Assembly: GCA_964647905.1 (NCBI GenBank)
Contig: CAZYJR010000008.1
Span: 47,823-111,822 of the forward strand
DNA from: an uncultured Desulfobacterales bacterium
GTDB taxonomy: Bacteria; Desulfobacterota; DSM-4660; Desulfatiglandales; HGW-15
Direction: 5' to 3'
DNA: 64,000 nucleotides
Every line of letters begins with the position of its first letter. The stretch's first letter is position 1. The notes under the pieces were generated by a model, which worked only from the letters and a program-made list of their open reading frames with translations, did not search any database and had not been told where the DNA came from. Of the stretch, positions 1 to 39,801 are shown one piece after another. The translations under genes and the position numbers were made by a program.

Positions 1-125
1 ATTGATTTTTTGGGTGCGAAGCATCCATAAGGAAAGGGAGGGGTGATTCGGCGGATCCTGCCCGGCCGTCACCGATACACACGCCGGGGTATAGGCTTGA
101 ATGATCCATTAAAAAGGGAGTCAAG

Positions 126-2708
126 ATGCAATACAATGACAAGAAACGCAAGGACGTCCTGGCTGATCTCCTGGCAAACACCACTCTGACGCGGCGCAGT
201 TTCGTGAAGGCGTCGGCGGCCACAGGAGGCGCCTTGGCCGCGGGCGGAAGGCTGATGCCGACGCTCAAAGCCCTTGCCAAGACGAATGAAACACCGGGCG
301 GGGCCGAAGGAGAGTGGCTGCCGGCCACCTGCCAGGGGTGTACGTCATGCTGCTCCCAGCAGGTCTATGTAATTCAAGGTCGTGCCGTCAAGGTGCGAGG
401 CAATCCGCATTCAAAGGTCAATGTAGGGGCCGGCTGTCCGCGGCCGCACCTTGCCATCCAGCAGGTCTATGACCCTGATCGCATCAGGACCCCCATGAAG
501 CGGACCAACCCCCGGAAAGGCCGCGATCAGGACCCTCAATTCGTGCCGATCACATGGGACGAGGCGCTCGACACCATCGCCGACAAGATCATTGAACTGC
601 GCGACAACCATGAGACCCACAAGTACATGCTCATGCGGGGGCGGTACACCTATATGCGCGATATCCTATATGATCGAATGACCAAGATCATCGGATCGCC
701 CAACAACATCTCCCACAGCGCCATCTGCGCAGAGGCGGAAAAGTTCGGGCCCTATTTTACCGAAGGTTTGTGGAACTACCGGCAGTATGACGTTGAAAAC
801 GCCCGCTACCTCCTGCTCTGGGGGGCCGATCCACTGTCCGCCAACCGCCAGGTCTCCTATTATTCGAGCGCCTGGGGCACGGTCCTCGACCGGGCCCAGG
901 TGACGGTGGTGGAACCCCGTCTATCGGCCACGGGCGCGAAAGCGGATGTCTGGCTTCCCATCAAACCGGGGAACGACGGCGCTCTTGCTGCCGCGATCGC
1001 TCATGTGATTCTCACAGAAGGGATCTGGTACCGGGATTTCGTGGGTGACTTCAGAGACGGAGAAAACCGGTTTCGACCCGGCCAGGATGTCCGCGAAGAC
1101 GACTTCGAGGAAAGATTCACCTACGGTCTCGTAAAGTGGTGGAACCTGGAGCTCAAGGATAAGACGCCGGAGTGGGCGGCATCCAAGACCGGCATCTCGG
1201 CCGAACAAATCCGCCGGGTGGCGCTTGACTACGGCAATGCAGCCCCCCATGCGATTTCCTGGGTCGGCGGCGGCCCGGTCATGCAGGTGCGCGGCTGTTA
1301 CGGCGGCATGCTCTGTCACGCCTTGAACGGCCTGGCCGGATCTGTGGACAACGCCGGCGGAACCCTGGCGCCCAACAAGGAATTTACATCACCTTTTCCG
1401 GGACCCGACGATTTCATGGATGAAATCGCCCAAAAAGGCATAAAACACGAAAAGATCGATCAGCGCGGCCGGCTGGAATTCCCCTCTCTCAAAGAGGGAA
1501 AACCCGGCGGCGGGGTGGTCACCAACAACGCGGCTGAGGGCATCCTCAACGAAGATCCCTATGAAATAAAAGTCGCGGTCGCCTACATGAACAATTTTTC
1601 CTTCTCCGCCGGACAACCCGAGCGATGGGAGCGGGCCCTGTCCAAGATCCCCTTCGTGGTCCACATGACCACCAATGCGTCGGAGTTTTCCTGGTTTTCG
1701 GACATTCTGCTGCCCAACACCCACCATCTCTTCGAAAAGTGGGGCTACGTCAAGGTACACGGCAACGGCTACCGGCACGTCACACTGATGCAGCCGATCA
1801 TCAAGCGTATCGGCGACTACAAGACGGATGAATCCGAATTCACCTGGCTGATTGCAGAAAAACTGGCCGAGCGGGGCTTCGACAACCTCTTGCGCCACTA
1901 CAAGACCTACCGGGATCCGGAGACCGGCAAAGAGCCGAGCAGTGATGATGAATTCGCGCTTTTTGCCCTGAAGATAGCCACCCGGAATCTGTGGGACCCC
2001 TCCAAGTACGAGGGCGGGGACAGATTCGGCGGATGGGCGGAATTCCGCAAGATCGGTGTCTGGAATTCGGATCCTTATCCGTTTCGCAAGCGCTGGGGAA
2101 AGATGAAGACAAAGACCGGCATGTTCGAATTCTACAGCGAAACCCTCAAAGAGGCCCTGAAGAACCATGCCGAAAAACACGATACGACCGTCGATCGTGT
2201 AATGGAGGTTTGCGATTACCAGGCCAGGGGAGAGCAGGCCTTCATCCCCCACTTTGAAGAACCGTGGACGTCCGGTGACCCGGGGGAGTATCCCCTCCTC
2301 TTTGTGGACCACAAATCGCGGCTCAATCGGGAAGGCCGCTCGGCCAACTGTCCCTGGTACTACGATTTCAAGGACGTGGATCCCGGAGACGAGAGCCGGG
2401 ACGATGTGGTCAAACTCAACCCATTGGACGGCAGGAAATTCGGCATCGCCAACGGTGACCGGGTTCGCCTGACCTCCCCCACCGGCCGCATCGAGTGCAC
2501 GGCAAAGTTATGGGAAGGGGTGCAGCCGGGAACGGCGGCCAAGTGTTACGGCCAGGGGCATTGGGCCTACGGCCGGTTGGCCGCGAAGGTATTCGGAAAA
2601 GCCCCCCGGGGCGGCAACAACAACGACCTGATACCCGCCGTATATGACCGCTTGAGCGGCAGCAGCGTGCGCCACGCCGGGACCCGCGTCAGGATCGAGA
2701 AGATCTAG
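126..2708 (+). CDS. Tat-exported molybdopterin oxidoreductase catalytic subunit, ArrA-like (Psr/Phs/Arr clade)
   Basis: 860-aa ORF with SD AAGGGAG upstream. Twin-arginine signal TRRSFVKASAATGGALAAG. FeS motif C-x2-C-x3-C-x27-C (CQGCTSCC...GAGC). RGRY at 171-174 (R173/Y174), HSAIC-x4-K (197-206) and Y218 match, at a constant +8 offset, the arsenate-pocket and Mo-Cys residues I recall for Shewanella ArrA. Confidence 0.85.
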   Translation: MQYNDKKRKDVLADLLANTTLTRRSFVKASAATGGALAAGGRLMPTLKALAKTNETPGGAEGEWLPATCQGCTSCCSQQVYVIQGRAVKVRGNPHSKVNVGAGCPRPHLAIQQVYDPDRIRTPMKRTNPRKGRDQDPQFVPITWDEALDTIADKIIELRDNHETHKYMLMRGRYTYMRDILYDRMTKIIGSPNNISHSAICAEAEKFGPYFTEGLWNYRQYDVENARYLLLWGADPLSANRQVSYYSSAWGTVLDRAQVTVVEPRLSATGAKADVWLPIKPGNDGALAAAIAHVILTEGIWYRDFVGDFRDGENRFRPGQDVREDDFEERFTYGLVKWWNLELKDKTPEWAASKTGISAEQIRRVALDYGNAAPHAISWVGGGPVMQVRGCYGGMLCHALNGLAGSVDNAGGTLAPNKEFTSPFPGPDDFMDEIAQKGIKHEKIDQRGRLEFPSLKEGKPGGGVVTNNAAEGILNEDPYEIKVAVAYMNNFSFSAGQPERWERALSKIPFVVHMTTNASEFSWFSDILLPNTHHLFEKWGYVKVHGNGYRHVTLMQPIIKRIGDYKTDESEFTWLIAEKLAERGFDNLLRHYKTYRDPETGKEPSSDDEFALFALKIATRNLWDPSKYEGGDRFGGWAEFRKIGVWNSDPYPFRKRWGKMKTKTGMFEFYSETLKEALKNHAEKHDTTVDRVMEVCDYQARGEQAFIPHFEEPWTSGDPGEYPLLFVDHKSRLNREGRSANCPWYYDFKDVDPGDESRDDVVKLNPLDGRKFGIANGDRVRLTSPTGRIECTAKLWEGVQPGTAAKCYGQGHWAYGRLAAKVFGKAPRGGNNNDLIPAVYDRLSGSSVRHAGTRVRIEKI

Positions 2709-2719
2709 GAGGATACACG

Positions 2720-3445
2720 ATGCCCAGATACGCCATGGTTATCGATCTGCAGAGTTGCGTCGGATGCGGTGCCTGCAGCCTTTCCTGCCGCAGCGAGAAC
2801 AATGTGCCGGACGGGATTTACTGGTCCAACAAGATCACTGAGACGGTCGGGACCTTTCCCAACGTCCGCTACCACTACATCCCAACGCTTTGCAACCACT
2901 GCGAAAACGCCCCCTGTGTCCGGGGCTGCCCCACCCGGGCCATGCACAAACTAGACAATGGGATTACCATGCACGATCCCAAAAAGTGCATTGGCTGCAA
3001 ATACTGCGAATTCAACTGCCCTTACGGGGTAATCTATTTCAACTGGCGCAAACCGCATCCCTTCTGGCGGCGGGAAAAAGCGTTGATCGAGGGAGGAACC
3101 TTCTCCCCGGCCGGAGTGGCCCGAAAGGCCGGCGGGGGGGTGATTCCCTACTACAACCCGGAGCGCGATGAAACCCTGGCCGGTATCAGACCCAAGGGCG
3201 TGGTGGAGAAATGTACATTCTGCGATCATCGCATCAAGAGAGGGCTGCTCCCGCGCTGCGTGGAAGCCTGCCCGGCCGATGCACGGATATTCGGCGACAT
3301 ATCGGATCCCGGCAGCGAGGTCAGCAAACTGCTCGGGAAATTCAGGCCGTTCCGGCTGCGCGAGCAGCTGGGCACCGATCCCCATGTTTTCTATATCCGC
3401 GATTTCAACCCCGCCCACTACCAGCCGACAAAGGGAGGTGTCTAA
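2720..3445 (+). CDS. 4Fe-4S ferredoxin-type beta subunit (PsrB/ArrB/DmsB-like)
   Basis: 241 aa with four Cys clusters (CVGCGACSLSC, CNHCENAPCVRGCP, CIGCKYCEFNCP, CTFCDHR...CVEACP). Lies directly after the alpha subunit. Confidence 0.9.
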   Translation: MPRYAMVIDLQSCVGCGACSLSCRSENNVPDGIYWSNKITETVGTFPNVRYHYIPTLCNHCENAPCVRGCPTRAMHKLDNGITMHDPKKCIGCKYCEFNCPYGVIYFNWRKPHPFWRREKALIEGGTFSPAGVARKAGGGVIPYYNPERDETLAGIRPKGVVEKCTFCDHRIKRGLLPRCVEACPADARIFGDISDPGSEVSKLLGKFRPFRLREQLGTDPHVFYIRDFNPAHYQPTKGGV

Positions 3446-4590
3446 TGAAGTCGTCCCAAGGAGCCTATATCACTTGGCTGGGCCTGCTCGGCGCCGCCAT
3501 TCTCGCCGGACTCTACGCCGCCTTCCGGTTGTTTACGGAAGGTCATTACCTGTTCAATGCCAACGATGTCCTGATGTGGTCCCTCCCCCTCGGCGTCTAT
3601 ATCTACCTCGCCCTGACCAGCACCGGCTTGACCCTGCTGGCATCGCTGCCCCTTGTTTTCGGGGTCGAGAAATTCGAACCATTGGCCAAACGTCTGGTCT
3701 TTTTGGCCATCGCCACCCTGGTCGGAGGGTTTGTGTCCATCGGGCTGGAGCTGGGCAATATTTTTCACATGTATTACATCCTGCTCTCCCCCAACCTGAG
3801 TTCCCCCATTTGGTGGATGGGGTTCATCTACAGCGTGGAGCTGGGGGTCTTGGCCATAAAGTTCTGGAGGCTCCACGTGGGAGACCGGCACAGCCCGCTG
3901 AGCAGGGTGTTGGGGCAGATCTCATTTGTCGCCGCCATCGTGGCTCCCCTGATGATCGGCTCCGTGTTCGGTCTTACGGAGTCGCGGGTTACCTATTTCG
4001 GCCCGGTGATGTCCATTTACTCCCTGATGATGGCCATCCTGAGCGGGACGGCAATGTGCCTTTTCTACAACCTCGTGCTCGACGCTCTTTCCGGCGACGG
4101 GCGGAGTGAGCCCGCTTCCGCGGTCCAGGATGATATTGCTCGGATTTTTGTTTGGACACTCGGTATAGTGATCATCTTCACTCTGGTCAAAGTCGCCATT
4201 GAATCCGCGACGGTCATTCCTGAGTTCCTGAACTACCGGAAATACGCTCAGATTTTCGGCGGAATCGGCAAGCTCAACACCGAGGTGATTGTAGGCTTGC
4301 TGGTGCCCTTTGTGCTGATGGCGGTTCCGTCCATCCGCCAGGCTCGTGTCACCCGAATTCTGGCCTCTGGCCTGGTTCTGGTGGGGACTCTCGCCATGCA
4401 CATGGAAATTCTCCTGGCAGGCCAGAGCCGCCCCATCGGTCCAAAGGCCGAGCAGTATCCCGAGTATGTGCACTATCATCCGAGCAGCTACGAGTGGCTG
4501 GTGATGCTGCTGGCCGTCTCAGTGGCCCTGCTGCTCTATACATTGGGTGAGCGCTACTTGAAGCTGGGGGCTGCGCCCGAGCACGGATGA
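3445..4590 (+). CDS. NrfD/PsrC-type polytopic membrane anchor subunit
   Basis: The ORF-track start 3211 overlaps the beta gene. The in-frame ATG at 3445 follows GGAGG and overlaps the beta stop. Sequence is hydrophobic with multiple TM segments (MKSSQGAYITWLGLLGAAILAGLY...). Confidence 0.8.
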   Translation: MKSSQGAYITWLGLLGAAILAGLYAAFRLFTEGHYLFNANDVLMWSLPLGVYIYLALTSTGLTLLASLPLVFGVEKFEPLAKRLVFLAIATLVGGFVSIGLELGNIFHMYYILLSPNLSSPIWWMGFIYSVELGVLAIKFWRLHVGDRHSPLSRVLGQISFVAAIVAPLMIGSVFGLTESRVTYFGPVMSIYSLMMAILSGTAMCLFYNLVLDALSGDGRSEPASAVQDDIARIFVWTLGIVIIFTLVKVAIESATVIPEFLNYRKYAQIFGGIGKLNTEVIVGLLVPFVLMAVPSIRQARVTRILASGLVLVGTLAMHMEILLAGQSRPIGPKAEQYPEYVHYHPSSYEWLVMLLAVSVALLLYTLGERYLKLGAAPEHG

Positions 4591-4615
4591 ACTTCGGGGA
4601 GGAGAATAATAATCG

Positions 4616-5296
4616 ATGAAAGCATCAAGAGAGCGGCTTCTTGACCAGGAAAACGCAAGAGCGGTGGTTTATCGACAATTGGCCGACGCCTTTCGCGTAC
4701 CGTCGGAGGCATTGTTCGAGGGACTGAAGGAAATGGCCGCTGCACTAGAGCTACTGGATTCCGAAGCCTGGGGAGACGCCGCGCGACTGGCGGCCGGCCG
4801 CTATGACGATCCGGATGATCGCCTCGAGATAAAGATCGACCATGCAGCGCTTTTCATGGGGCCCTTCCTGGCACCGGCTGCACCTTACGGATCGGTATAC
4901 CTTGAAGACCAACGCCGGCTGATGGGTGCTTCGACCGTGGATGCAAGGCGGCATTACCTCAGCTTGGGGTTGGATCTGTCACCGGACTTCAAGGAAGCGC
5001 CGGATCACATTTGCGCCGAGCTGGAGTTCATGCATGTGCTGGTCCATCGGGCGATTGGGGCCGTCGAGACCCTTGACCGGGAGTTGCTGGCGAAGAGCGT
5101 CCGTCAACAGAGCATCTTTCTTGTAAAGCACCTTGGGACATGGGCGCCGGCCTTTGCGCACCAGATCCTCCAGCACGCCCAAACCGGCTACTACCGGAAT
5201 TTGGCCGCAGTGCTCGAAACGTTTGTGGCCGAAGAGATGGAAGCCCTCCCTGATCTGAAGAATCTGCAGCCGGCGCCCCGCTCGGCAGCCGGCTGA
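4616..5296 (+). CDS. TorD/DmsD/NarJ-family redox-enzyme maturation chaperone
   Basis: 226 aa with SD GGAGGAG. Contains the family-typical PDHICAELEFMHVL segment and sits in the chaperone position of the operon. Confidence 0.8.
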   Translation: MKASRERLLDQENARAVVYRQLADAFRVPSEALFEGLKEMAAALELLDSEAWGDAARLAAGRYDDPDDRLEIKIDHAALFMGPFLAPAAPYGSVYLEDQRRLMGASTVDARRHYLSLGLDLSPDFKEAPDHICAELEFMHVLVHRAIGAVETLDRELLAKSVRQQSIFLVKHLGTWAPAFAHQILQHAQTGYYRNLAAVLETFVAEEMEALPDLKNLQPAPRSAAG

Positions 5297-5316
5297 CAGT
5301 CAACCGGAGGAAACCC

Positions 5317-6009
5317 GTGGGACCATTTGAAAGCCTGTTGAAGGAATCGGCAAGGGTCCATGGGCACCTGTGCCCGGGACAGGTTATCGGCGTCCGTATG
5401 GCCATGCTGGGCTGCCGCCTGATCGGTCTGAACCGACCCACCAGCCGGGACCAGATCAAGAAACTGATCGTTTACGTCGAAATGGACCGCTGTACGGCCG
5501 ACGCCGTGGCGTACGTCAGCGGGGTGAGGCTGGGACGGCGCAGTCTCAAATTCATGGATTACGGCATCATGGCGGCCACTTTTCTCAATATCGAATCGGG
5601 GCGGGCCTACCGCGTGCTTTCGACCGAGGAATCCCGCGATCTGGCGGACGTCTACGCTCCGGCGATCCAAGGCAAACGCGCCCGGCAGCTGGAGGCTTAT
5701 CGGCGCATGCCGGACAGCGTCTTGTTCCGGGTTCAGAAGGTAAACGTCCGTCTGAACGACTGCGACCTGCCGGGTCCGACCCGAAGCAAGGTGGCCTGCA
5801 GCCTATGCGGTCAGATCATTCGCGACGGGCGTGAGATCAGGTATAACGGAGAGCCTGTCTGTAAACCGTGTTCCGATGACTGCTACTTTTCCCATGCCAG
5901 GGAGGTCAACTGGCCGGAGATGAACTGGTCGCCGCTTGAAGAAGAAACCCGGCGCCGGGGCCCATCGATTGACTCAGGCCGCAACAGGAAGATCGCGGCG
6001 ATCCACTGA
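5317..6009 (+). CDS. FmdE/FwdE-family protein with C-terminal zinc ribbon
   Basis: GTG start 5 nt after GGAGGA. N-terminal HGHLCPGQVIGVRMA motif is typical of the FmdE domain. C-terminal CSLCGQ...CKPC pair. Confidence 0.75.
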   Translation: MGPFESLLKESARVHGHLCPGQVIGVRMAMLGCRLIGLNRPTSRDQIKKLIVYVEMDRCTADAVAYVSGVRLGRRSLKFMDYGIMAATFLNIESGRAYRVLSTEESRDLADVYAPAIQGKRARQLEAYRRMPDSVLFRVQKVNVRLNDCDLPGPTRSKVACSLCGQIIRDGREIRYNGEPVCKPCSDDCYFSHAREVNWPEMNWSPLEEETRRRGPSIDSGRNRKIAAIH

Positions 6010-6113: not shown

Positions 6114-6142
6114 TTGACATGTCTCAATTAGCAGTATAGTAT
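6114..6142 (+). promoter_or_regulatory. sigma70-like promoter for the arsR-ABC operon
   Basis: TTGACA (6114-6119), 17-nt spacer, TAGTAT (6137-6142), about 30 nt before the ATG at 6173. TTGACATGTCTCAA is also a partial palindrome. Confidence 0.45.
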
Positions 6143-6172: not shown

Positions 6173-6496
6173 ATGACACAAGAGGACAAGGCGGCGCGTA
6201 TGTTCAAGGTGCTTTCCTCCGCCACCAGGCTGAGGATGACGGAGCTCTTGAAGGGCCGGGCCCTGTGCGTAAACGCGCTTGCCCGGGCCCTGGAGATCAC
6301 CCCCGCGGCTGTCTCCCAGCACCTCAGGGTACTGCGAGACGCGGACCTGGTCACAGGAGAAAAGAGGGGGAACTTTGTCCACTATACCATGAACCAAAAG
6401 ACCCTCCTCGAGTGGTACGAGACTGCGGCCGGATTCCTGGCAGTGCAGGAAAGGATCGTCCTTCCCACCATACAGGGCGGAGACGGGAAAGACTAA
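6173..6496 (+). CDS. ArsR/SmtB-family transcriptional regulator
   Basis: 107 aa with HTH LCVNALARALEITPAAVSQHLRVLRDADLV and wing GNFVHYTMN. Confidence 0.9.
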   Translation: MTQEDKAARMFKVLSSATRLRMTELLKGRALCVNALARALEITPAAVSQHLRVLRDADLVTGEKRGNFVHYTMNQKTLLEWYETAAGFLAVQERIVLPTIQGGDGKD

Positions 6497-6498
6497 GG

Positions 6499-7482
6499 AT
6501 GGAGAGGCCGGAATCGATCATTGAGGTGGGAGGGCTCAGCAAACGCTTCGACGGGGTCGCCGCGGTTGATTCGGTGGGCTTCGACGTACGCGGGGGAGAG
6601 CTCTTCGGCTTCCTGGGACCCAACGGCGCGGGCAAGACCACCACGATCAACATGCTGACCGGTCTGGCGCGACCAGACAAAGGGACCGTCACCATAGGAG
6701 GCATAGACTGCACCGACCGCCCCAGGGCAGCCCAGCATCTGATAGGGGTGGTCCCGGACGAGAGCAATCTCTATCCCGAGCTCACCGGATTCGACAATCT
6801 GTGCTTCTGCGCCGCTCTTTACGGAATGGCAAAGGCCGAGCGCAAGGCCAGGGCAAGAGAGCTCCTCTCCGCCTTCGACCTCGAGGAGGCCGCCGAACGG
6901 AGGTTCGGCGGGTTTTCCAAGGGGATGAAGAGGAGGCTGACCATCGCGGCCGGGATCATCCACAGGCCCGAGATACTGTTCCTGGACGAACCGACCACCG
7001 GGATCGACGTGGCCGGGGCGCGAAAGCTCCGCCGGCTTATTGCCGATCTCCACCGGTCCGGGACGACGATCTTCCTCACCACCCACTACATCGAGGAGGC
7101 CGAGAGGCTCTGCAGCCGTACTGCGTTCATCGTATCGGGACGGATCGTGAGGATCGACACCGTGGAGAATCTGCTCCAGCCCTTCCAGGAGAGGCCCGCG
7201 GTGCAGATCTCATGCTCCAACCCTCTGGACGGGCTGAAGCACCTGCTTCAGGAGTCTTTCCCGGATCTGGGGTTCTCCTTCCCGGGGCCCGGCTTGATCC
7301 GGGCGGAGTCCCATAGGCCGGTGCGGGCGGGCGAGCTGGTCAGATATCTGGAAGAGCAGGGCATAGAGGTATCCGAGGCCCGAAGGATGAGGCCGTCCTT
7401 GGAGGAGGTCTTCGTCAGAATCACCGGTCTGGAGGCGGAGGCCATGCGGAAAGAAAAGGAAAAGGCAGGAGGCGGACCATGA
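6499..7482 (+). CDS. ABC transporter ATP-binding protein
   Basis: In-frame ATG at 6499 (the track start 6265 overlaps arsR). Walker A GPNGAGKTT, signature FSKGMKRRL, Walker B ILFLDEPT. Confidence 0.9.
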   Translation: MERPESIIEVGGLSKRFDGVAAVDSVGFDVRGGELFGFLGPNGAGKTTTINMLTGLARPDKGTVTIGGIDCTDRPRAAQHLIGVVPDESNLYPELTGFDNLCFCAALYGMAKAERKARARELLSAFDLEEAAERRFGGFSKGMKRRLTIAAGIIHRPEILFLDEPTTGIDVAGARKLRRLIADLHRSGTTIFLTTHYIEEAERLCSRTAFIVSGRIVRIDTVENLLQPFQERPAVQISCSNPLDGLKHLLQESFPDLGFSFPGPGLIRAESHRPVRAGELVRYLEEQGIEVSEARRMRPSLEEVFVRITGLEAEAMRKEKEKAGGGP

Positions 7483-8216
7483 AGCTCTGGATCGCCTTTT
7501 GGAACATACTGACAAAGGACATGAGGACCTATTACCTCAAGCCGCCCAATATCAGCTGGGGCCTCATCTTCCCCCTGGCCTGGACCGGCATGTTCTTCAT
7601 CAAGTCAGGGAGCGAGCTGGGGAGCATACCTGCACTGCTCCCGGGGGTCGTGGCGATCTCCATCCTGTTCGGGACCACCTCCATGCTGGCCGTGACCGTG
7701 ACCTTCGAGAAGAAGAACCGATCCTTCGAGAGGCTCCTCCTGGCCCCCATCCCGCTGGAGCTGCTGATGCTGGCCAAGACAGGCGGGGCGATACTGTTCG
7801 GTACGGCCAACGCCTTTGTGCCGGTGGCAATGGCCGCGTTCTTCACGGATCTATCAGAAGTGGTATGGGTGGCGTTCATTCCTTCGGTTATCCTGATTGC
7901 TGCATCTTCAACTTTCTTGGGGCTTTTCATAGCAGTCGCCGTGAGCGAGGTCTTTGAGGCTCAGACCTTTTCCAACTTTTTCCGTTTTCCCATGATCTTC
8001 CTCTGCGGCCTTTTCTTTCCCATCGAAAGACTGCCCGTGTTCCTCAAGCCCCTCTCTTATATACTCCCTCTGACCTACGGGGCGGACGTGCTCCACGGAG
8101 CGGTCCACGGGGGGCACTCCATGCCCTTCACCCTGGACCTGGCCCTGCTCGTGGTGTTCTGCACCGCGCTCTTCGCCGTGAGCCTCCGCAACATCAAGAG
8201 GCGCTGGATCACCTAA
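7479..8216 (+). CDS. ABC-2 type transporter permease
   Basis: 245 aa, about 6 TM segments, 4-nt overlap with the ATPase gene. Confidence 0.85.
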   Translation: MKLWIAFWNILTKDMRTYYLKPPNISWGLIFPLAWTGMFFIKSGSELGSIPALLPGVVAISILFGTTSMLAVTVTFEKKNRSFERLLLAPIPLELLMLAKTGGAILFGTANAFVPVAMAAFFTDLSEVVWVAFIPSVILIAASSTFLGLFIAVAVSEVFEAQTFSNFFRFPMIFLCGLFFPIERLPVFLKPLSYILPLTYGADVLHGAVHGGHSMPFTLDLALLVVFCTALFAVSLRNIKRRWIT

Positions 8217-8289
8217 ATCAACCCCCGCCCGCGACCCTTGATAAACGCTGTAGCTCGGAGTAAAAAGACCTGGGGCTTGGCACAAGAGT

Positions 8290-9972
8290 ATGAAGGCGCT
8301 TCTTATTTATCCTTATTTCCTGGACCAGAGGCTCGACCAGGAAGACATTGACGTCATCCCCCAGGGCCTCTATTACGTGGCGGCGGTCCTCCGCTCGGCC
8401 GGAATGGAGGTGGGAGTGGCTGATCTCCACGGGTTTCGGGATAGGCCCGACGAGATCGGAAACATGATCGCGGCGGCCGATCCGGACCTGATCGGCGTTT
8501 CGGTCCTGCATGCCAACCGCTGGGGCGCAATCGACATAGCCGGGATAGCCAAAGCCGCCCGGCCCGAGACTCCGGTCGTATTCGGCGGGGTGGGGGCCAC
8601 GTTCCTCTGGGAGCTCCTCCTCGGCCGGTTTGCGGAGATCGACTACGTGGTCCTGGGCGAAGGGGAGTACACCTTCCTTGAGCTCGCCCGGACCCTGGAA
8701 GCCGGGGGCCCGGCGGGCGCAGCAAGCATATCAGGGCTGGCCTTTCGCCGGGGCGGACGTCCTATCAAGACCGGCCGGCGGGAGCCCATCCCCGATCTAG
8801 ACGCCCTGCCCCACCCGGCCCGGTTCTTTACGTACCGGCATCTGCTCCTCTCCCGCGGCTGCCCCGGGCGGTGCACCTTCTGCGGCTCCCCGGGGTTCTG
8901 GCCGGGGCCCGTGAGGTCCCACTCGGCCGGCTACTTCCTGGAAGAGCTGGAGATGCTCTCAGCGAGAGGGGTGGGGCACTTCTTCGTCTCGGACGACACC
9001 TTCACCCTGGATCCGTCCAAGGTGGTGGAGATCTGCCGGGGCATAATCGATCGGAGGCTCTGGATCACCTGGCAGGCCATATGCCGAGTGGACCAGGTGG
9101 ACAAGGAGCTCCTGTACTGGATGAGGAAGGCCGGCTGCATCCAGATAAGCTACGGGGTGGAGAGCGGGTCCCCAGCGATACGAAAGCGCCTGGGAAAACC
9201 CTTGCGGGAAGATGACATCCGCAGGGCCTTCTCCCTCACCACCAGGTTCGGGATCCTGCCGAGGGCCTATTTCATCTACGGTTCACCGGGCGAGACCCGG
9301 GAGACCATCCAGGCGACCCTGGATCTTATGACCGAGATAAGGCCCCTGGCAGCCATCTTCTATGTTCTGACCCTATTCCCGGGCACGGCCCTGGCGGACC
9401 GGTTCCTGCGGAGGACCGGGCGGTCAAAGGAGGTCTGGCTGGAACGATCGGAAGACATTCCCTATTGCGAGACCGATCCGCAGCTCACCAGGGAGCAGGT
9501 CCTGGAGTTCGGCCGCTTGTTGAGGGAGGGGTTTTACCGGATGCTGCCGCGGGCGGCTGACGCCGTAGAGCTCGAGGAGCGGGAGGATCTTCGCCCGTCC
9601 CATGCGGATTTCCTCTCCCGCCTCGGAATGACCTTCCACCGGGGGGACTACGCCCGGCTGGAGGCCGTGCCCGAAAAGGCGGCCCTGGCCCGGGGGCTCT
9701 ACTCCAGGGCCCTGGACTTCCACCCCGATCCCAGGGCCTTCCTGGGCCTGGCTATGCTGGATCAGCAGTCCGGCGAGGCGGCCTCGGCCGAGAAGACCCT
9801 CCGGAGGGGCCTGGAGCGATTCCCGGAAGACGCGCCCCTTGCGCTATGCCTGGGCGTCCTCCTGATGAACCAGGGGCGTTTCCAAGAGGCCTTGGATCTG
9901 CTGGGCCGCTTCCCGGACAACTCGGACATCCGCCCGTACCTGGACGAATGCCGGCGTATGCTCGGGAGATAA
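8290..9972 (+). CDS. B12-binding-domain radical SAM protein with C-terminal TPR-like repeats
   Basis: N-terminal cobalamin-binding-like fold (KALLIYPY...GLYYVAAVL). Radical SAM triad CPGRCTFC. C-terminal helical repeats (ALDFHPDPRAFLGLAML...). Confidence 0.8.
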   Translation: MKALLIYPYFLDQRLDQEDIDVIPQGLYYVAAVLRSAGMEVGVADLHGFRDRPDEIGNMIAAADPDLIGVSVLHANRWGAIDIAGIAKAARPETPVVFGGVGATFLWELLLGRFAEIDYVVLGEGEYTFLELARTLEAGGPAGAASISGLAFRRGGRPIKTGRREPIPDLDALPHPARFFTYRHLLLSRGCPGRCTFCGSPGFWPGPVRSHSAGYFLEELEMLSARGVGHFFVSDDTFTLDPSKVVEICRGIIDRRLWITWQAICRVDQVDKELLYWMRKAGCIQISYGVESGSPAIRKRLGKPLREDDIRRAFSLTTRFGILPRAYFIYGSPGETRETIQATLDLMTEIRPLAAIFYVLTLFPGTALADRFLRRTGRSKEVWLERSEDIPYCETDPQLTREQVLEFGRLLREGFYRMLPRAADAVELEEREDLRPSHADFLSRLGMTFHRGDYARLEAVPEKAALARGLYSRALDFHPDPRAFLGLAMLDQQSGEAASAEKTLRRGLERFPEDAPLALCLGVLLMNQGRFQEALDLLGRFPDNSDIRPYLDECRRMLGR

Positions 9973-10123
9973 AGGAGAGCTTGCTCATGCATGCGGGCCA
10001 GGAAAGAGTAGGCGGCGAGGTGCTGAAATCGCTTGAACATGGGCCGAGTCTGCCCCATTATGCGGTCTTCGCATCGGCGGCGTTCACTGCAGTCGCATCC
10101 GGTGCATTGAGGGGCTCTTACAC

Positions 10124-10825
10124 ATGCTGTTGGGCACGATCGTCAACACTCTGGCCATCATCGCAGGCGGACTCATAGGTCTCTTCTTCAGCCGTTTCAT
10201 CCCGGAGAGGCATTCCGGAACGGTAATTCAGGCGGTGGCCCTTGCCATCATCATGATGGGAATCAAGATGGCCTGGGGGACGGAAGACGTCATCCTGGTC
10301 ATCTGCAGCTTGGCCCTTGGAGGGGCCCTGGGTGCGGTGATCGGGGTCGAGGATCGGCTGGAGGGCCTGGGGAACAAGCTCCAACAGCGCTTCAGCGGAT
10401 CGGGGGAAGGAATATCCAAGGCCTTCGTGTTCACCAGCCTCCTCTACTGCGTTGGATCCCTGGCCATCGTAGGGTCTCTGGAGAGCGGACTCGAGGGGAA
10501 GCATGAAATACTCTTCGCCAAGTCCGTGTTGGACGGCCTGGGATCAGTCCTCTTCGCCGCGACCATGGGTGTAGGCGTCCTTTTCTCCTCGATTCCTGTC
10601 TTTCTCTACCAGGGTGGCATAGTCGTTACAGCGTCCTTCGGCAAACAGCTCCTGACCCCGGAGGTGATCGCTCAGATGTCCGCTGTGGGCGGGCTGCTCA
10701 TCATGGGCATGGGGCTCAACATGCTCGGTGCCACCAAGATCAAGGTGGGGGATATTCTTCCCGCCATATTCGTCCCCCTCCTGTACCACCTGTCCAGGGA
10801 TCTGATAACGCTTTTCTTTTCCTGA
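10124..10825 (+). CDS. DUF554-family integral membrane protein
   Basis: 233 aa. N-terminus MLLGTIVNTLAIIAGGLIGL and Gly-rich TM segments are typical of YdfK/YqgA-like DUF554. Confidence 0.7.
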   Translation: MLLGTIVNTLAIIAGGLIGLFFSRFIPERHSGTVIQAVALAIIMMGIKMAWGTEDVILVICSLALGGALGAVIGVEDRLEGLGNKLQQRFSGSGEGISKAFVFTSLLYCVGSLAIVGSLESGLEGKHEILFAKSVLDGLGSVLFAATMGVGVLFSSIPVFLYQGGIVVTASFGKQLLTPEVIAQMSAVGGLLIMGMGLNMLGATKIKVGDILPAIFVPLLYHLSRDLITLFFS

Positions 10826-10900: not shown

Positions 10901-11098
10901 ATGGAGCGACGGCTCCTTAAGATGGAACCAGAGGACAGGACGATTCCTGCACAGGGGCCCGGGCGGGGAAGCGCTGCACCCATCGGCCTGGATATCGGTG
11001 CCGACACGCCCGGCGAGACGGCAGTGGCCATAGCGGCTGAATTGATCCAGGCACGCCGCAGACCCCTTTCTCCCGAAACGGAGAGGATAGGAGGGTGA
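10901..11098 (+). pseudogene. C-terminal remnant of an XdhC/CoxI-family Mo-cofactor insertion protein
   Basis: Only 65 codons. APIGLDIGADTPGETAVAIAAELIQ matches the conserved XdhC C-terminal block. The N-terminal roughly 200 aa are missing. Confidence 0.5.
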
Positions 11099-11100
11099 TC

Positions 11101-11748
11101 ATGGAAAGAACCGCCCGGCGCCTAGCCGGCGCCCCCCTGGCGGGGACAATCGGGGAATACACGTTCGCCCGGTTCAAGAAAAAGGTGGAGGCCTTTCACG
11201 GCGCGCCCGCCCCGGGGATTCTCATCGGAGGCTACATGGTGGTGCTGGCGAGATCCATGCTTCCGCCGGGGACGCTGTTCGAGGCGCTGGTCGAAACATC
11301 CAAGTGCCTGCCCGACGCGGTGCAGCTGCTGACCCCGTGCAGCACCGGGAATCGCCGCATGAAGGTCGTAGACCTCGGACGCTACGCCCTGACTCTCTAC
11401 GATAAGGTCAATGGAAAAGGCAGGCGCGTATCCATCGATCTTCAACTGCTGGCCGACTGGCCGGAGATTCGTGATTGGTTCATGAAGCTCAGGCCTAAAA
11501 GGGAGCAGGACACCGATCGATTGCTCATGGAGATCGAACAGGCCGGCGAAGCATTCCTGGCCTGCGAGCCCGTTCAGATCAAAGAACCGTGGCTTCAAAA
11601 AGAGTCTATAGGAGAGATCGGAATCTGCCCTATGTGCCGGGAGGCCTACCCCAAGAACCACGGACCTTGCTGCCGCGGCTGCAACGGCGGCGCCCCCTTT
11701 CGTCCCCTGGAATCCGGAGGCAAAGGGACCTTGTCAATCGCCTCATGA
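11101..11748 (+). CDS. FmdE/FwdE-family protein with C-terminal zinc ribbon (paralog of 5317-6009)
   Basis: ATG 5 nt after GGAGGG. FHGAPAPGILIGGYMV motif; C-terminal CPMCRE...CCRGC. Confidence 0.7.
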   Translation: MERTARRLAGAPLAGTIGEYTFARFKKKVEAFHGAPAPGILIGGYMVVLARSMLPPGTLFEALVETSKCLPDAVQLLTPCSTGNRRMKVVDLGRYALTLYDKVNGKGRRVSIDLQLLADWPEIRDWFMKLRPKREQDTDRLLMEIEQAGEAFLACEPVQIKEPWLQKESIGEIGICPMCREAYPKNHGPCCRGCNGGAPFRPLESGGKGTLSIAS

Positions 11749-15741: not shown

Positions 15742-16412
15742 GAAGAGGCATGGTCATCGATCTCGAGAGCTGTATAGGGTGCCGTTCATGCGCGGTTGCG
15801 TGCAAGGAGCACAATGCCCAGCCGCCCGGGAACTGGTGGAACAGGGTCATGTCCCCCGGGAGCCACCGCCATCTCACGCCGCCGGAAAAAGGACGGATGT
15901 ACTTTCTCCCTGTCCACTGCCAGCACTGCGAGAACGCCCCCTGTGAAAAGGTCTGCCCGGTGGACGCCACCTACCGCTCGGACCAGGGGGAGATCCTGGT
16001 GGACTTCGAGCGGTGCATCGGGTGCCGCTACTGCATGGCCGCCTGCCCTTACGGCGTCCGGCAGTTCAATTGGGAAGAGCCGAAAAAGGCCGTCCGCAAG
16101 TACGAGTATCAAAACGGCTACGTCTACGGACACCCCCGGGAATACCGCCTGAAAGGGCGGCTCGTCTATATGCCTTTCCGATTCAAAGGGGTGGTCGAAA
16201 AGTGCAACTGCTGTGTTCATTACAAGGATCAAGGGCTGGAGCCCGCCTGCGTGCGGGGGTGCCCAGGAAATGCGCGGCACGTGGGCGACCTGGACGATCC
16301 GGAAAGCGAGGTGTCCAGAATGATCCGGGATAAGAACGGTTTCAACCTCTTGCCGGAGAAGGGGACGAGACCCAATGTGTTCTATCTCCCCCCGAGAAGG
16401 AAGGAGGTCTAG
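15738..16412 (+). CDS. 4Fe-4S ferredoxin-type beta subunit (short, DmsB/PsrB-like)
   Basis: In-frame ATG at 15738 overlaps the alpha stop (ATGA). Four Cys clusters (CIGCRSCAVAC, CQHCENAPCEKVCP, CIGCRYCMAACP, CNCCVH...CVRGCP). Confidence 0.85.
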   Translation: MRRGMVIDLESCIGCRSCAVACKEHNAQPPGNWWNRVMSPGSHRHLTPPEKGRMYFLPVHCQHCENAPCEKVCPVDATYRSDQGEILVDFERCIGCRYCMAACPYGVRQFNWEEPKKAVRKYEYQNGYVYGHPREYRLKGRLVYMPFRFKGVVEKCNCCVHYKDQGLEPACVRGCPGNARHVGDLDDPESEVSRMIRDKNGFNLLPEKGTRPNVFYLPPRRKEV

Positions 16413-16415
16413 GGC

Positions 16416-18268: not shown

Positions 18269-18423
18269 ATCTCCCCCAAGCTCCTCCGGGCGGCCAACCG
18301 GGCTATAGGGAGACCGAACCCTGTTCCGTAGGGTTTGGAGGAATGAAAGGGGATGAAGGACTCAACCAGGATGCAGTCCCCCGAGAAGTCCTCCTGGAGA
18401 AAGGAGCTCGTCGGATGAGACAA
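18196..18423 (-). pseudogene. Orphan C-terminal fragment of a histidine-kinase ATPase domain
   Basis: KPYGTGFGLPIARLAARRSLGEIYLEPVPDKGARCIIKLP matches the G2 box and C-terminus of HATPase_c. No HisKA or sensor part lies upstream. It overlaps the torD 3' end and the hdrC 5' leader. Confidence 0.5.
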
Positions 18424-19891: not shown

Positions 19892-19982
19892 TCCAAAGCC
19901 GTTTATGACTAAAATAGTAGGAGTTGGTTGCCTGGGAGATGAGTATGACAAGACGCGTCAATCGTGCGAGGAGGGGGAAGCA

Positions 19983-39778: not shown

Positions 39779-39801
39779 TATATAAATGAATATTTATATA
39801 T
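39778..39801. promoter_or_regulatory. AT-rich 10-4-10 perfect inverted repeat (candidate ArsR operator)
   Basis: ATATATAAAT-GAAT-ATTTATATAT immediately upstream of arsR. 19 of 21 nt are shared with the element at 40581-40600. Confidence 0.5.

What the first reader, a model, noticed from the sequence alone, without database searches (positions are those of the whole stretch)
126..6009. First Mo operon carries the arsenate-respiratory-reductase (ArrA) residue signature: arrABCD-like plus FmdE, next to ArsR
The alpha subunit has the C-x2-C-x3-C-x27-C motif reported for ArrA and the (R/K)GRY motif used to tell ArrA from ArxA/Psr. It also has R173, Y174, H197, S198, C201, K206 and Y218. As I recall the Shewanella ANA-3 structure (R165, Y166, H189, S190, C193, K198, Y210), these reproduce the arsenate-binding pocket and Mo-Cys ligand at a constant +8 offset. 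Gene order alpha, beta, NrfD-type membrane subunit and TorD-like chaperone equals arrA-B-C-D of some Gram-positive and delta-proteobacterial arr loci. An ArsR regulator follows. Automated annotation would probably call this polysulfide or thiosulfate reductase.
Basis: partly seen in the sequence, partly recalled or inferred. Interest (0 to 1): 0.55.

Follow-up and report, generated by a model that had tools for sequence, protein, structure and literature searches.

The report
Respiratory arsenate reductase operon, Desulfobacterales type
This is a genuine-looking respiratory arsenate reductase operon (arrA-B-C-D plus a conserved FmdE-like gene) from a marine-type sulfate-reducer lineage. It is a new member of a known enzyme family that automatic annotation leaves unnamed; the neighbouring ArsR gene is unrelated to it.

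Summary
It aligns without gaps across the pocket region to the solved Shewanella ANA-3 ArrA, at a constant +8 offset.

The interpretation also holds:
- The alpha is 59% identical to ANA-3 ArrA, 32% to ArxA and 24% to PhsA.
- It sits with ANA-3 ArrA in a 90-91% bootstrap subclade, inside a 96-100% clade whose members mostly carry RGRY. ArxA forms a separate clade.
- The beta subunit's best solved match is ANA-3 ArrB.

Order arrA-B-C-D is conserved in about 65 of 80 related loci. These are mostly Desulfobacterales-type MAGs, plus three Desulfoluna isolates. Many relatives carry, upstream, an ArrX-like arsenate-sensor protein, a sigma-54 activator and a sigma-54 promoter. That region lies just outside the window.

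- The Fe-S motif is not ArrA-specific.
- The ArsR gene has its own promoter, heads an ABC-transporter operon, has a single cysteine, and is not conserved next to arr.
- NCBI names these proteins only "molybdopterin-dependent oxidoreductase", because its ArrA model cut-off (1600 bits) passed only the Shewanella sequence among those tested; the window scores 1271.

An FmdE-like zinc protein is a frequent fifth gene (33 of 51 loci).

Verdict: new member of a known kind, moderate interest.

The parts
1..30 (+). 3' end of an upstream ORF cut by the window edge (…IDFLGAKHP*). It is probably the small receiver-like gene that precedes arrA in relatives.
   Evidence: frame 1 reads to a stop at 28-30. 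In 66 related loci a 106-210 aa ORF with the conserved motif HIYACLxKPxDPDEL ends 13-288 nt (mostly 20-125 nt) before arrA. The window's 9-residue tail lies in the variable C-terminus, so homology is inferred from position only.
126..2708 (+). arrA: Mo-bisPGD catalytic subunit of respiratory arsenate reductase, 860 aa, Tat-exported.
   Evidence: - PDB 6CZ7_A (ArrA) 1143.8 bits; next best is Thermus PsrA at 134.6.
- 59% identity over 803 aa to ANA-3 ArrA.
- NCBIfam ArrA model 1270.8 bits; next is PhsA at 240.
- NJ tree places it with ANA-3 ArrA at 90-91% bootstrap.
192..209 (+). Twin-arginine (Tat) motif RRSFVK, residues 23-28 of ArrA.
   Evidence: TIGR01409 Tat signal domain 23.2 bits, above its cut-off of 16.7.
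330..437 (+). FS0 [4Fe-4S] motif C69-x2-C72-x3-C76-x27-C104. Present, but shared with ArxA, PhsA and most relatives.
636..779 (+). Active-site segment: RGRY (171-174), H197, S198, Mo-ligand C201, K206, Y218.
   Evidence: identical to ANA-3 ArrA at all nine positions. ArxA has YGRGWG and E/V at the Lys position; PhsA shares only H and C.
2720..3445 (+). arrB: electron-transfer subunit with four [4Fe-4S] clusters (16 Cys in four groups). It has no signal peptide, so it would be exported together with ArrA.
   Evidence: PDB 6CZ7_B 300.4 bits against Thermus PsrB 163. NCBIfam ArrB 334.5 bits against DsrO 191.8. A GGAGGA ribosome-binding site precedes the ATG.
3445..4590 (+). arrC: NrfD/PsrC-type haem-free membrane quinol dehydrogenase/anchor, 381 aa, about 10 hydrophobic segments.
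   Evidence: Pfam NrfD PF03916, 62.4 bits. The ArrC class is described with 10 transmembrane helices in PMC8076601.
4616..5296 (+). arrD: TorD/DmsD-family chaperone for cofactor insertion and Tat proofreading.
   Evidence: Pfam Nitrate_red_del PF02613, 104.4 bits. NCBIfam TorD 74.6 bits and DMSO_red_II chaperone 72.5 bits. Conserved in this position in 65 related loci.
5317..6009 (+). FmdE-family protein with a C-terminal treble-clef zinc ribbon. It is the fifth gene of the operon. Its role is inferred only: an accessory or maturation factor.
   Evidence: - Pfam FmdE PF02663, 104.5 bits.
- HGHLC (15-19) and C58 match the N-terminal-domain metal site; CSLC161 and CKPC182 form the zinc ribbon (PMC2954224).
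- It follows arrD in 33 of 51 related loci that have enough downstream DNA, at 64-78% identity, against 33-60% for ArrD.
6114..6142 (+). Sigma-70-like promoter (TTGACA-17-TAGTAT, 10 of 12 matches) in the 163-nt gap after fmdE. It marks the start of a separate arsR-ABC operon.
   Evidence: This is a consensus match only: one site was found and 0.9 is expected by chance, so it is supportive rather than decisive.
6173..6496 (+). ArsR/SmtB-family HTH regulator with a single Cys (C32, LCVNAL). It is not part of the arr unit.
   Evidence: NCBIfam HTH_metalloreg 83.6 bits. One cysteine. Its stop at 6496 is followed by the ABC ATPase ATG at 6499. No homologue adjoins arr downstream in the related loci; only two weak matches lie 3-5 kb downstream.
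6499..8216 (+). ABC ATPase (6499-7482) and ABC-2 permease (7479-8216). They are the likely targets of the ArsR-family regulator and are not part of arr.
   Evidence: Pfam ABC_tran and ABC2_membrane. Gene junctions.

Best explanation
Bases 126-6009 are one operon for a membrane-anchored, periplasm-facing respiratory arsenate reductase of the ArrA clade.

**Proposed mechanism**
- ArrC, a haem-free NrfD/PsrC-type protein with about 10 transmembrane helices, oxidises menaquinol.
- Electrons pass through the four [4Fe-4S] clusters of ArrB.
- They then reach the FS0 cluster (C69/C72/C76/C104) and the Cys201-ligated Mo-bisPGD of ArrA.
- There arsenate is held by the RGRY loop (R173, Y174) and by H197, S198, K206 and Y218, and is reduced to arsenite.
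- ArrA carries the Tat signal and would take ArrB across the membrane with it.
- ArrD is the TorD-type chaperone for cofactor loading and Tat proofreading.
- The FmdE-like zinc protein is an additional, lineage-typical accessory, probably a maturation factor.

**Shown versus inferred**
- Shown here: family membership, residue identity, synteny, and the arsenic-linked regulatory genes in relatives.
- Inferred: catalytic activity, physiological direction, the quinol donor, and the FmdE role.

The ArsR-family gene that follows belongs to a separate ABC-transporter operon.
For: **Similarity**
- Best solved-structure match is ANA-3 ArrA at 1143.8 bits, against 134.6 for PsrA.
- 59% identity over 803 aa.
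- ArxA from two arx loci is 32% identical and PhsA 24%.

**Phylogeny** (NJ trees, 100 bootstraps)
- The window sequence and seven sampled close relatives group at 100%.
- They join ANA-3 ArrA at 90-91%.
- The wider clade, mostly RGRY-bearing, is supported at 96-100%.
- ArxA forms a separate clade at 100%.

**Residues**
- All nine signature residues are identical to ANA-3.
- The full signature is confined to the ArrA clade among 111 representatives.
- (R/K)GRY versus XGRGWG is the published ArrA/ArxA discriminator (PMC6549141).

**Other subunits**
- ArrB's best PDB hit is ANA-3 ArrB.
- ArrC is NrfD-type, ArrD TorD-type and the fifth gene FmdE-family.
- Translational coupling and ribosome-binding sites link the genes.

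**Context in relatives**
- arrA-B-C-D is conserved in about 65 of 80 loci.
- Upstream there is a periplasmic binding protein whose best solved match is the arsenate sensor ArrX: 6X6B at 196.8 bits, above AioX at 156 and PtxB at 54. ArrX binds arsenate with a Kd of 1 uM (PMC5908839).
- A HAMP-GAF sigma-54 activator follows it.
- A sigma-54 promoter lies 460-790 nt upstream of arrA in 29 of 68 loci, against 22 matches in the remaining ~1.06 Mb.
- Five loci carry a canonical CVC-type ArsR divergent from arrX.
- arrA in Desulfobacterota MAGs has been reported and found transcribed in cold seeps (PMC10060404).
Against: - No activity or growth data exist for any member of this Desulfobacterales clade. 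I found no report of arsenate respiration in the Desulfoluna isolates that carry the operon.
- The alpha and beta score below NCBIfam's curated equivalog cut-offs: 1270.8 against 1600, and 334.5 against 450. One search shows that, of the sequences tested, only the Shewanella protein (1704.7) passes. Other RGRY-clade representatives score 667-1178.
- The tree has only one experimentally characterised ArrA anchor. Other cultured arsenate respirers could not be retrieved.
- The window contains no ars detoxification genes. Its own upstream regulatory region is cut off.
- Gene order A-B-C-D is that of arx and psr, not the classical arrCAB.
- The pocket-residue list rests on recollection of a paper that could not be read.
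Confidence: 0.85

Rival explanations
1. The enzyme works physiologically in reverse, as an Arx-like anaerobic arsenite oxidase feeding electrons into the quinone pool.
For: - Gene order A-B-C-D, an X-type periplasmic sensor and sigma-54 control are shared with the arx loci of Sulfuricella and Cereibacter (for relatives).
- From my own knowledge: Arr enzymes are reversible in vitro.
Against: - The motif is RGRY, not XGRGWG.
- Identity to ArxA is 32%, against 59% to ArrA.
- ArxA forms a separate clade at 100% bootstrap.
- There is no arxB2-type extra Fe-S gene upstream of arrA in relatives.
- The relatives' sensor matches ArrX (arsenate-binding) better than AioX.
- The hosts are Desulfobacterales-type. 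By taxonomy they are presumably sulfate reducers, which was not checked here. No high-potential electron acceptor system is evident in the window.
Confidence: 0.06
2. It is an ArrA-clade enzyme whose real substrate is a different oxyanion or sulfur-arsenic species, for example thioarsenate or antimonate, in sulfidic sediments.
For: - The hosts are Desulfobacterales-type MAGs, many from marine or sediment samples, where free arsenate may be scarce.
- The window has no ars genes.
- A sister subclade inside the ArrA clade has an altered pocket (KGRS, H-D-C-K-Y), so specificity does drift in this family.
Against: - All nine signature residues are identical to the arsenate-bound Shewanella enzyme.
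- Relatives carry an ArrX-like sensor, and some carry a canonical CVC ArsR.
- No positive evidence exists for any other substrate.
Confidence: 0.06
3. It is a polysulfide or thiosulfate reductase (Psr/Phs), as a generic annotation might suggest.
For: - PhsA is the second-best NCBIfam model at 240 bits, and Thermus PsrA the second-best solved structure.
- A-B-C order and an NrfD-type anchor are shared with psr.
Against: - Only 24% identity to PhsA.
- PhsA falls outside the clade of all 67 other sequences in the tree, which was rooted on it.
- PhsA shares only the His and the Cys ligand of the signature.
- ArrA-model and ArrA-structure scores are 5-8 times higher.
Confidence: 0.01

Closest known systems
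ArrAB of Shewanella sp. ANA-3 (PDB 6CZ7-6CZA)
   Same: - ArrA is 59% identical, with a gap-free alignment through the active site.
- The RGRY motif, H/S/C/K/Y pocket, FS0 motif and Tat signal are the same.
- ArrB is the best structural match.
- Both fall in the same 90-91% bootstrap subclade.
   Different: - Shewanella has only arrAB and draws electrons from the cytochrome CymA (PMC2762525; PMC2500031). Here an NrfD-type ArrC, a TorD-type ArrD and an FmdE-like gene are in the operon.
- The NCBIfam equivalog score is 1271 here, against 1705 for ANA-3.
arxB2ABCD/arxXSR arsenite-oxidase loci (Sulfuricella denitrificans skB26 pSCD; Cereibacter azotoformans pORIO3)
   Same: A-B-C-D gene order with an NrfD anchor and a TorD chaperone. 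A periplasmic X-type sensor and a sigma-54 regulator lie next to the operon. The same is seen in the window's relatives.
   Different: - ArxA is only 32% identical, has YGRGWG in place of RGRY, and lacks the Lys (E/V instead).
- arx has an extra arxB2 gene.
- arx uses separate sensor-kinase and response-regulator genes. The relatives here have one HAMP-GAF-AAA+-HTH protein.
Classical arrCAB / arrAB clusters (Duval et al. 2008) and arrXSR of Chrysiogenes arsenatis
   Same: An ArrA/ArrB pair, with an optional PsrC-like ArrC. Relatives carry an arsenate-binding ArrX-type sensor: 197 bits to C. arsenatis ArrX, PDB 6X6B.
   Different: - ArrC lies downstream of arrB, not upstream of arrA.
- In relatives the regulator is a sigma-54 enhancer-binding protein, not the CitB/FixJ-like ArrR of Chrysiogenes.
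- An FmdE-family gene is present. It is not mentioned in any arr description I could read.
PsrABC of Thermus thermophilus (2VPZ) / PhsABC
   Same: Same three-subunit architecture and A-B-C order. The NrfD-type anchor has no haem. The Fe-S motif is shared.
   Different: About 24% identity. The arsenate-pocket residues are absent. It falls outside the Arr/Arx grouping in the tree, which was rooted on PhsA.
FmdE family (PF02663; PDB 2GVI, 2GLZ, 3D00)
   Same: An N-terminal alpha+beta domain with the H-x-H-x-C…C metal site, and a C-terminal treble-clef zinc ribbon.
   Different: Here it is the fifth gene of an arr operon, not part of a formylmethanofuran dehydrogenase operon or a neighbour of a metal transporter. 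No function is established for the family.

Membership tests
ArrA (respiratory arsenate reductase catalytic subunit) | DMSO-reductase-family Mo-bisPGD protein with a Tat signal and an N-terminal FS0 [4Fe-4S] motif | tested here: met
   Pfam Molybdop_Fe4S4, Molybdopterin and Molydop_binding. RRSFVK and C-x2-C-x3-C-x27-C. This feature is necessary but not specific.
ArrA (respiratory arsenate reductase catalytic subunit) | Falls in the ArrA clade with a biochemically characterised ArrA, apart from ArxA and Psr/Phs | tested here: met
   NJ trees with 100 bootstraps: 90-91% with ANA-3 ArrA, 96-100% for the wider, mostly RGRY-bearing clade, ArxA clade separate at 100%, tree rooted on PhsA. Limits: only one characterised anchor, and a distance method.
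ArrA (respiratory arsenate reductase catalytic subunit) | (R/K)GRY motif rather than the ArxA XGRGWG motif | tested here: met
   RGRY at residues 171-174. The criterion is quoted from Glasser 2018 in PMC6549141. ArxA references have YGRGWG.
ArrA (respiratory arsenate reductase catalytic subunit) | Arsenate-pocket residues and Cys Mo-ligand as in 6CZ7 (R165, Y166, H189, S190, C193, K198, Y210) | tested here: met
   All are identical in a gap-free alignment. That these particular residues form the pocket is recalled from Glasser 2018, which could not be read.
ArrA (respiratory arsenate reductase catalytic subunit) | Adjacent ArrB-type four-cluster ferredoxin | tested here: met
   The gene at 2720-3445 scores 300.4 bits to ANA-3 ArrB and 334.5 bits to NCBIfam ArrB.
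ArrA (respiratory arsenate reductase catalytic subunit) | Score above the NCBIfam NF041714 equivalog cut-off (1600 bits) | tested here: not met
   1270.8 bits. Calibration: ANA-3 scores 1704.7, Desulfoluna 1285, and six other RGRY-clade representatives 667-1178. Of the sequences tested the cut-off admits only the Shewanella one, so this is a property of the model and does not exclude the protein from the family.
ArrA (respiratory arsenate reductase catalytic subunit) | Arsenate-responsive regulation (ArrX-type sensor or ArsR) | tested here: inconclusive
   - The window starts 125 nt before arrA, so its own regulatory region is missing.
- Relatives, including L005 at 83% ArrA identity, have an ArrX-like binding protein, a sigma-54 activator and a sigma-54 promoter. 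Five have a CVC-type ArsR.
- The Desulfoluna limicola isolate locus (L036) lacks these genes; the conserved-gene tally shows the same for L054.
ArrA (respiratory arsenate reductase catalytic subunit) | Arsenate reductase activity / arsenate-dependent growth | not testable with these tools
   No experimental data for this clade were found.
ArxA (anaerobic arsenite oxidase) | XGRGWG motif and membership of the ArxA clade | tested here: not met
   RGRY instead. 32% identity. Separate clade.
PsrA/PhsA (polysulfide/thiosulfate reductase) | Clusters with PsrA/PhsA | tested here: not met
   24% identity to PhsA. PhsA falls outside the Arr/Arx grouping in the tree rooted on it. PhsA model 240 bits against its cut-off of 694.
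As(III)-responsive ArsR (the gene at 6173-6496) | As(III)-binding cysteine set, such as the CVC of ELCVCDL, or a C-terminal or N-terminal Cys triad | tested here: not met
   A single Cys (C32) in LCVNAL. Relatives' divergent ArsR genes do have CVC. It meets only the generic ArsR/SmtB HTH family: 83.6 bits against a cut-off of 55. The motif definitions are from my own knowledge.
ArrC (NrfD/PsrC-type anchor) | NrfD-family polytopic membrane protein without haem ligand motifs, encoded with arrAB | tested here: met
   PF03916, 62.4 bits. About 10 hydrophobic segments. Conserved after arrB in 69 loci. Quinol-site residues were not examined.
ArrD (TorD/DmsD chaperone) | PF02613 domain, encoded with its Tat-dependent molybdoenzyme | tested here: met
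   104.4 bits. Conserved after arrC in 65 loci.
FmdE family (PF02663) | FmdE core with H-x-H-x-C…C metal site, with or without a treble-clef zinc ribbon | tested here: met
   104.5 bits. HGHLC at 15-19, C58, CSLC161 and CKPC182, compared with the sites described in PMC2954224.

The most novel reading that the evidence does not exclude
A large, cosmopolitan clade of Desulfobacterales-type bacteria is an unrecognised guild of arsenate respirers. It includes cultured Desulfoluna species and the Delta3/Delta4 symbionts of the gutless worm Olavius. Current annotation thresholds hide the operon. Many members use a distinctive control circuit: an ArrX-like sensor, a membrane-bound HAMP-GAF sigma-54 activator and a small receiver-like protein. 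The conserved FmdE-family zinc protein would be a dedicated maturation factor for this Mo-bisPGD enzyme, which would give the orphan FmdE family its first defined role outside methanogenesis.
Probability: 0.3. Interest if true: 0.55.

Novelty: new member of a known kind. Interest (0 to 1): 0.35.

Why it matters
Respiratory arsenate reduction mobilises arsenic from sediments and aquifers. Surveys rely on recognising arrA.

This operon belongs to a clade found in at least 80 species-level genomes, nearly all Desulfobacterales-type; 308 genomes held a relative. Public annotation labels the protein only as a generic molybdoenzyme, because the NCBI ArrA model cut-off passed only the Shewanella sequence among those tested.

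If the clade is active, sulfate-reducing communities in marine and brackish sediments carry much more arsenate-respiring potential than annotation suggests. Three cultured Desulfoluna strains make this directly testable.

The conserved FmdE-like gene offers a handle on a protein family that has structures but no established function.

arrA in Desulfobacterota MAGs has already been reported, so the main result refines existing knowledge.

Tried and rejected
- **Primary structure paper.** Glasser et al. 2018 could not be read by DOI or PMC id. A search for papers quoting the residue numbers found nothing relevant. The pocket list therefore stays a recollection. The motif criterion was confirmed second-hand.
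- **Window's own contig.** The look-up of encoding contigs had no record for the window's ArrA. The 117-kb parent contig and its upstream region could not be fetched.
- **Genome scan.** The single scan was saturated by Desulfobacterales-type genomes. Verified ArrAs from Chrysiogenes, Bacillus, Desulfitobacterium or Geobacter could not be added to the tree.
- **Names for cluster representatives.** The listing of cluster members gave no useful names.
- **Plasmid collection.** It holds no ArrA, but it supplied annotated ArxA and PhsA references.
- **Structure model.** The AlphaFold2 model from 36 close relatives was poor: mean pLDDT 47.6, pTM 0.38. No fold search or superposition was attempted. 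The 59%-identity alignment to 6CZ7 is the better evidence.
- **Sigma-54 promoter in the window.** None in bases 1-125. In relatives it lies 460-790 nt upstream, beyond the window edge.
- **Other arsenic genes in the window.** An FMN-reductase-fold protein (43056-43709) and a small methyltransferase (39794-40420) gave no NCBIfam match, including ArsH or ArsM. No arsC, acr3, arsB or arsM was found in the ORFs scanned.
- **ArsR as arsenic evidence.** Rejected.
- **Fe-S motif as an ArrA marker.** Rejected.

Full report
**1. What is in the sequence**

Bases 126-6009 hold five co-directional genes with short gaps and ribosome-binding sites:
- alpha, 126-2708 (860 aa)
- beta, 2720-3445 (241 aa)
- a membrane protein, 3445-4590 (381 aa); its ATG overlaps the beta stop as TAATG
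- a TorD-like protein, 4616-5296
- an FmdE-family protein, 5317-6009

After a 163-nt gap that contains a sigma-70-like promoter match (6114-6142) comes an ArsR-family gene (6173-6496). Its stop is followed three bases later by the ATG of an ABC ATPase (6499-7482), then an ABC-2 permease (7479-8216).

The window begins only 125 nt before the alpha start. Bases 1-30 are the tail of an upstream ORF.

**2. Check of the observation**

- C69-x2-C72-x3-C76-x27-C104
- RGRY at 171-174
- R173, Y174, H197, S198, C201, K206, Y218
- a Tat motif, RRSFVK, at residue 23

The phmmer alignment to PDB 6CZ7 chain A (Shewanella ANA-3 ArrA) has no gap between query 61 and about 420. It puts these residues on chain R125/Y126/H149/S150/C153/K158/Y170. 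The chain index is 40 below native numbering, so these are R165/Y166/H189/S190/C193/K198/Y210. The +8 offset is correct.

I could not read Glasser et al. 2018. The (R/K)GRY versus XGRGWG rule is confirmed second-hand (PMC6549141).

One element is not diagnostic. The Fe-S motif with x27 spacing is shared by Arr, Psr/Phs and a third clade according to Duval 2008. In my set it occurs in 67 of 97 non-ArrA relatives, including ArxA and PhsA.

**3. Is the alpha an ArrA?**

*Similarity*
- ANA-3 ArrA 1143.8 bits, against 134.6 for the next solved structure, Thermus PsrA.
- 59% identity over 803 residues.
- NCBIfam ArrA model 1270.8 bits, against 240 for PhsA.
- Annotated plasmid-borne references gave 32% identity to ArxA and 24% to PhsA. 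The ArxA references come from the Sulfuricella skB26 and Cereibacter ORIO loci, both with arxXSR and B2-A-B-C-D.

*Family-wide scan*
- A full HMMER scan of 1.84 billion cluster representatives returned 9203 relatives.
- In an alignment of the full-length ones, the nine-residue signature RGRY+H,S,C,K,Y is confined to the strongest-scoring representatives, from about 420 bits upward.
- ArxA-type representatives have FGRGWG or YGRGMG.
- A small sister group has KGRS and H-D-C-K-Y.

*Trees* (NJ, 100 bootstraps)
- The window sequence groups with seven sampled close relatives at 100%.
- That group joins ANA-3 ArrA at 90-91%.
- The wider clade, mostly RGRY-bearing, has 96-100% support.
- ArxA is a separate clade at 100%. 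The tree was rooted on PhsA.

*Curated cut-off*
- The alpha and beta both fall below NCBIfam's equivalog cut-offs (1600 and 450).
- Calibration shows why: ANA-3 ArrA scores 1704.7 even without its N-terminus, Desulfoluna limicola scores 1285, and six other RGRY-clade representatives score 667-1178.
- Of the sequences tested, the cut-off admits only the Shewanella one.
- This explains why NCBI names this protein's relatives only 'molybdopterin-dependent oxidoreductase' and JGI 'anaerobic selenocysteine-containing dehydrogenase'.

**4. The other subunits**
- **Beta.** It has 16 cysteines in four cluster groups. Its best solved match is ANA-3 ArrB (300.4 bits), ahead of Thermus PsrB (163).
- **Membrane protein.** It is NrfD-family with about ten hydrophobic segments. 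This matches the ArrC class in the NrfD review.
- **Fourth gene.** It carries the TorD/NarJ domain.
- **Fifth gene.** It is FmdE-family, with the H-x-H-x-C…C metal site and a C-x2-C…C-x2-C zinc ribbon, as described for the three structural-genomics structures. The function of that family is unknown; chaperone and regulator roles have been suggested.

**5. Context in relatives**

A genome scan found 308 species-level genomes with a relative. The best 80 are mostly Desulfobacterales-type MAGs at 70-85% identity. They also include Desulfoluna limicola, D. spongiiphila, D. butyratoxydans and the Olavius Delta3 and Delta4 symbionts.

*Synteny*
- arrA-B-C-D is conserved: ArrB in 77 loci, ArrC in 69, ArrD in 65.
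- FmdE follows ArrD in 33 of the 51 loci with at least 2.5 kb of downstream DNA.
- FmdE is better conserved (64-78% identity) than ArrD (33-60%).
- FmdE is missing from the three Desulfoluna isolates.

*Upstream genes, found in roughly 50-65 of the 80 loci*
- A periplasmic binding protein whose best solved match is the arsenate sensor ArrX of Chrysiogenes (196.8 bits; AioX 156; PtxB 54). ArrX binds arsenate with a Kd of 1 uM.
- A single HAMP-GAF-AAA+-HTH sigma-54 activator of about 740 aa.
- A small receiver-like protein.
- A strict sigma-54 promoter pattern 460-790 nt upstream of arrA in 29 of 68 loci, against 22 matches in the other ~1.06 Mb.
- In five loci, a canonical CVC-type ArsR divergent from arrX.

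*Downstream of FmdE*
- A MoCF_biosynth-domain protein in 41 loci, often followed by MobB.

These are independent links to arsenic and to Mo-cofactor maturation. They are in relatives, because the corresponding part of the window's own locus lies beyond its left edge. The closest relative with full flanks (L005, 83% ArrA identity) has all of them.

**6. The ArsR gene**

It meets the generic ArsR/SmtB HTH family. However:
- It has a single cysteine, in LCVNAL, where arsenite-sensing ArsRs have CVC.
- It sits behind its own promoter-like site.
- It heads an ABC-2 transporter operon.
- No homologue adjoins arr downstream in the 80 related loci. Only two weak (32-35%) ArsR-family matches lie 3-5 kb downstream, in L006 and L060.

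It should not be counted as evidence for arsenic. No ars detoxification genes were found in the ORFs scanned across the 64-kb window.

**7. Mechanism**

The best-supported model is a quinol:arsenate oxidoreductase:
- ArrC oxidises menaquinol.
- ArrB relays electrons through four [4Fe-4S] clusters.
- ArrA's FS0 cluster and Cys201-ligated Mo-bisPGD reduce arsenate to arsenite on the periplasmic side.
- ArrA's Tat signal exports the folded ArrAB pair.
- ArrD loads cofactor and proofreads export.
- The FmdE-like protein is an extra accessory, probably in maturation. This is inferred from its position between arrD and the Mo-cofactor genes of relatives. A second FmdE paralogue (27% identical) also sits near the window's second molybdoenzyme operon.

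Family membership, residues and synteny are shown. Activity, direction, donor and the FmdE role are inferred.

**8. Rivals**
- **Arx-like reverse operation.** It shares gene order and regulatory style. The motif, the identity and the tree argue against it.
- **A different oxyanion substrate.** This cannot be excluded without assays, but nothing positive supports it.
- **Psr/Phs.** Excluded by sequence.

**9. Comparison with the known, and novelty**

This is an ArrA-clade enzyme, and arrA in Desulfobacterota MAGs has already been reported and found transcribed in cold seeps. It is therefore a new member of a known kind.

It differs from textbook arr loci in three ways:
- A-B-C-D order, where arrCAB or arrAB is classical.
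- The frequent FmdE-family fifth gene. None of the arr descriptions I could search mentions it.
- In relatives, an X-sensor paired with a one-protein sigma-54 activator, not an XSR three-gene module.

No growth or enzyme data were found for the clade. Three cultured Desulfoluna strains make the prediction testable.

**10. What failed**
- The AlphaFold2 model from a shallow alignment was unusable (pLDDT 47.6), so no structural superposition was done.
- The parent contig could not be fetched.
- Other verified ArrAs could not be added to the tree.

Noticed in passing
window 13207-19891 (+): A second molybdoenzyme operon:
- an 844-aa alpha, closest to the DMSO-reductase type II subfamily (TIGR03479, 447.7 bits, well below its cut-off of 984.75)
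- a four-cluster beta
- a DsrP/NrfD-like membrane subunit
- a TorD-like chaperone
- HdrC-like and HdrB/SdhE-like proteins
- NifU and a class-V aminotransferase (NifS-like) at 19878-21682

The substrate is unknown.
   Followed up: partly
window 11095-11748 (+): A second FmdE-family paralogue, 27% identical over 100 aa to the arr-linked one. It lies about 1.5 kb upstream of the second molybdoenzyme operon, next to a CBS-domain protein. Two FmdE genes beside two Mo operons hints at a general link with molybdoenzymes.
   Followed up: partly
window 53695-56409 (-): A third molybdopterin oxidoreductase (904 aa; Pfam Molybdopterin and Molydop_binding). No N-terminal Fe4S4-domain hit was listed. Not classified further.
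   Followed up: no
L005:3712-7921, and equivalent positions in roughly 50-65 of 80 related loci: The regulatory module upstream of arrA in relatives has three parts:
- an ArrX-like periplasmic binding protein
- a single HAMP-GAF-AAA+-HTH_8 sigma-54 activator, replacing the usual separate sensor kinase and response regulator
- a small receiver-like protein with the motif HIYACLxKPxDPDEL

A sigma-54 promoter lies just before the small gene. This may be a variant of the arsenic XSR circuit that has not been described.
   Followed up: partly
L012, L027-L029, L040, L041, L043, L046, L048 and others, ArrC position: ArrC comes in two divergent forms among relatives: 34-41% or about 50-85% identity to the window's ArrC. 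ArrA and ArrB stay at 70-92% in the same loci. This suggests replacement of the membrane anchor within an otherwise conserved operon.
   Followed up: no
P0126 / P0129 (cluster of 188 members), representatives: A subclade nested in the ArrA clade, 45-46% identical to the window's ArrA, has KGRS where ArrA has RGRY, and H-D-C-K-Y where ArrA has H-S-C-K-Y. This may be an ArrA-derived enzyme with altered substrate specificity.
   Followed up: no
NCBIfam NF041714 / NF041715: The curated ArrA cut-off (1600 bits) is passed by Shewanella ANA-3 ArrA (1704.7) but by none of eight other ArrA-clade sequences tested (667-1285). The window's ArrB likewise scores below the ArrB cut-off (334.5 against 450; only that one ArrB was tested). 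Much of the ArrA clade is therefore likely to be left as 'molybdopterin-dependent oxidoreductase' in NCBI annotation.
   Followed up: yes
L062:7806-10583 (Olavius algarvensis Delta 4 symbiont): arrA appears as two ORFs (7806-9347 and 9447-10583), not one. It may be a frameshift, a pseudogene or an assembly error.
   Followed up: no
window 8290-9972 (+) and 10124-10825 (+): A B12-binding radical-SAM protein (560 aa; best NCBIfam matches ApyD and BchE types, all far below cut-off) and a DUF554 membrane protein lie between the two Mo operons.
   Followed up: no
window 23951-25199 (+) and 25471-27225 (-): An AbiEi/AbiEii type IV toxin-antitoxin pair, and a hybrid-cluster (prismane) protein.
   Followed up: no
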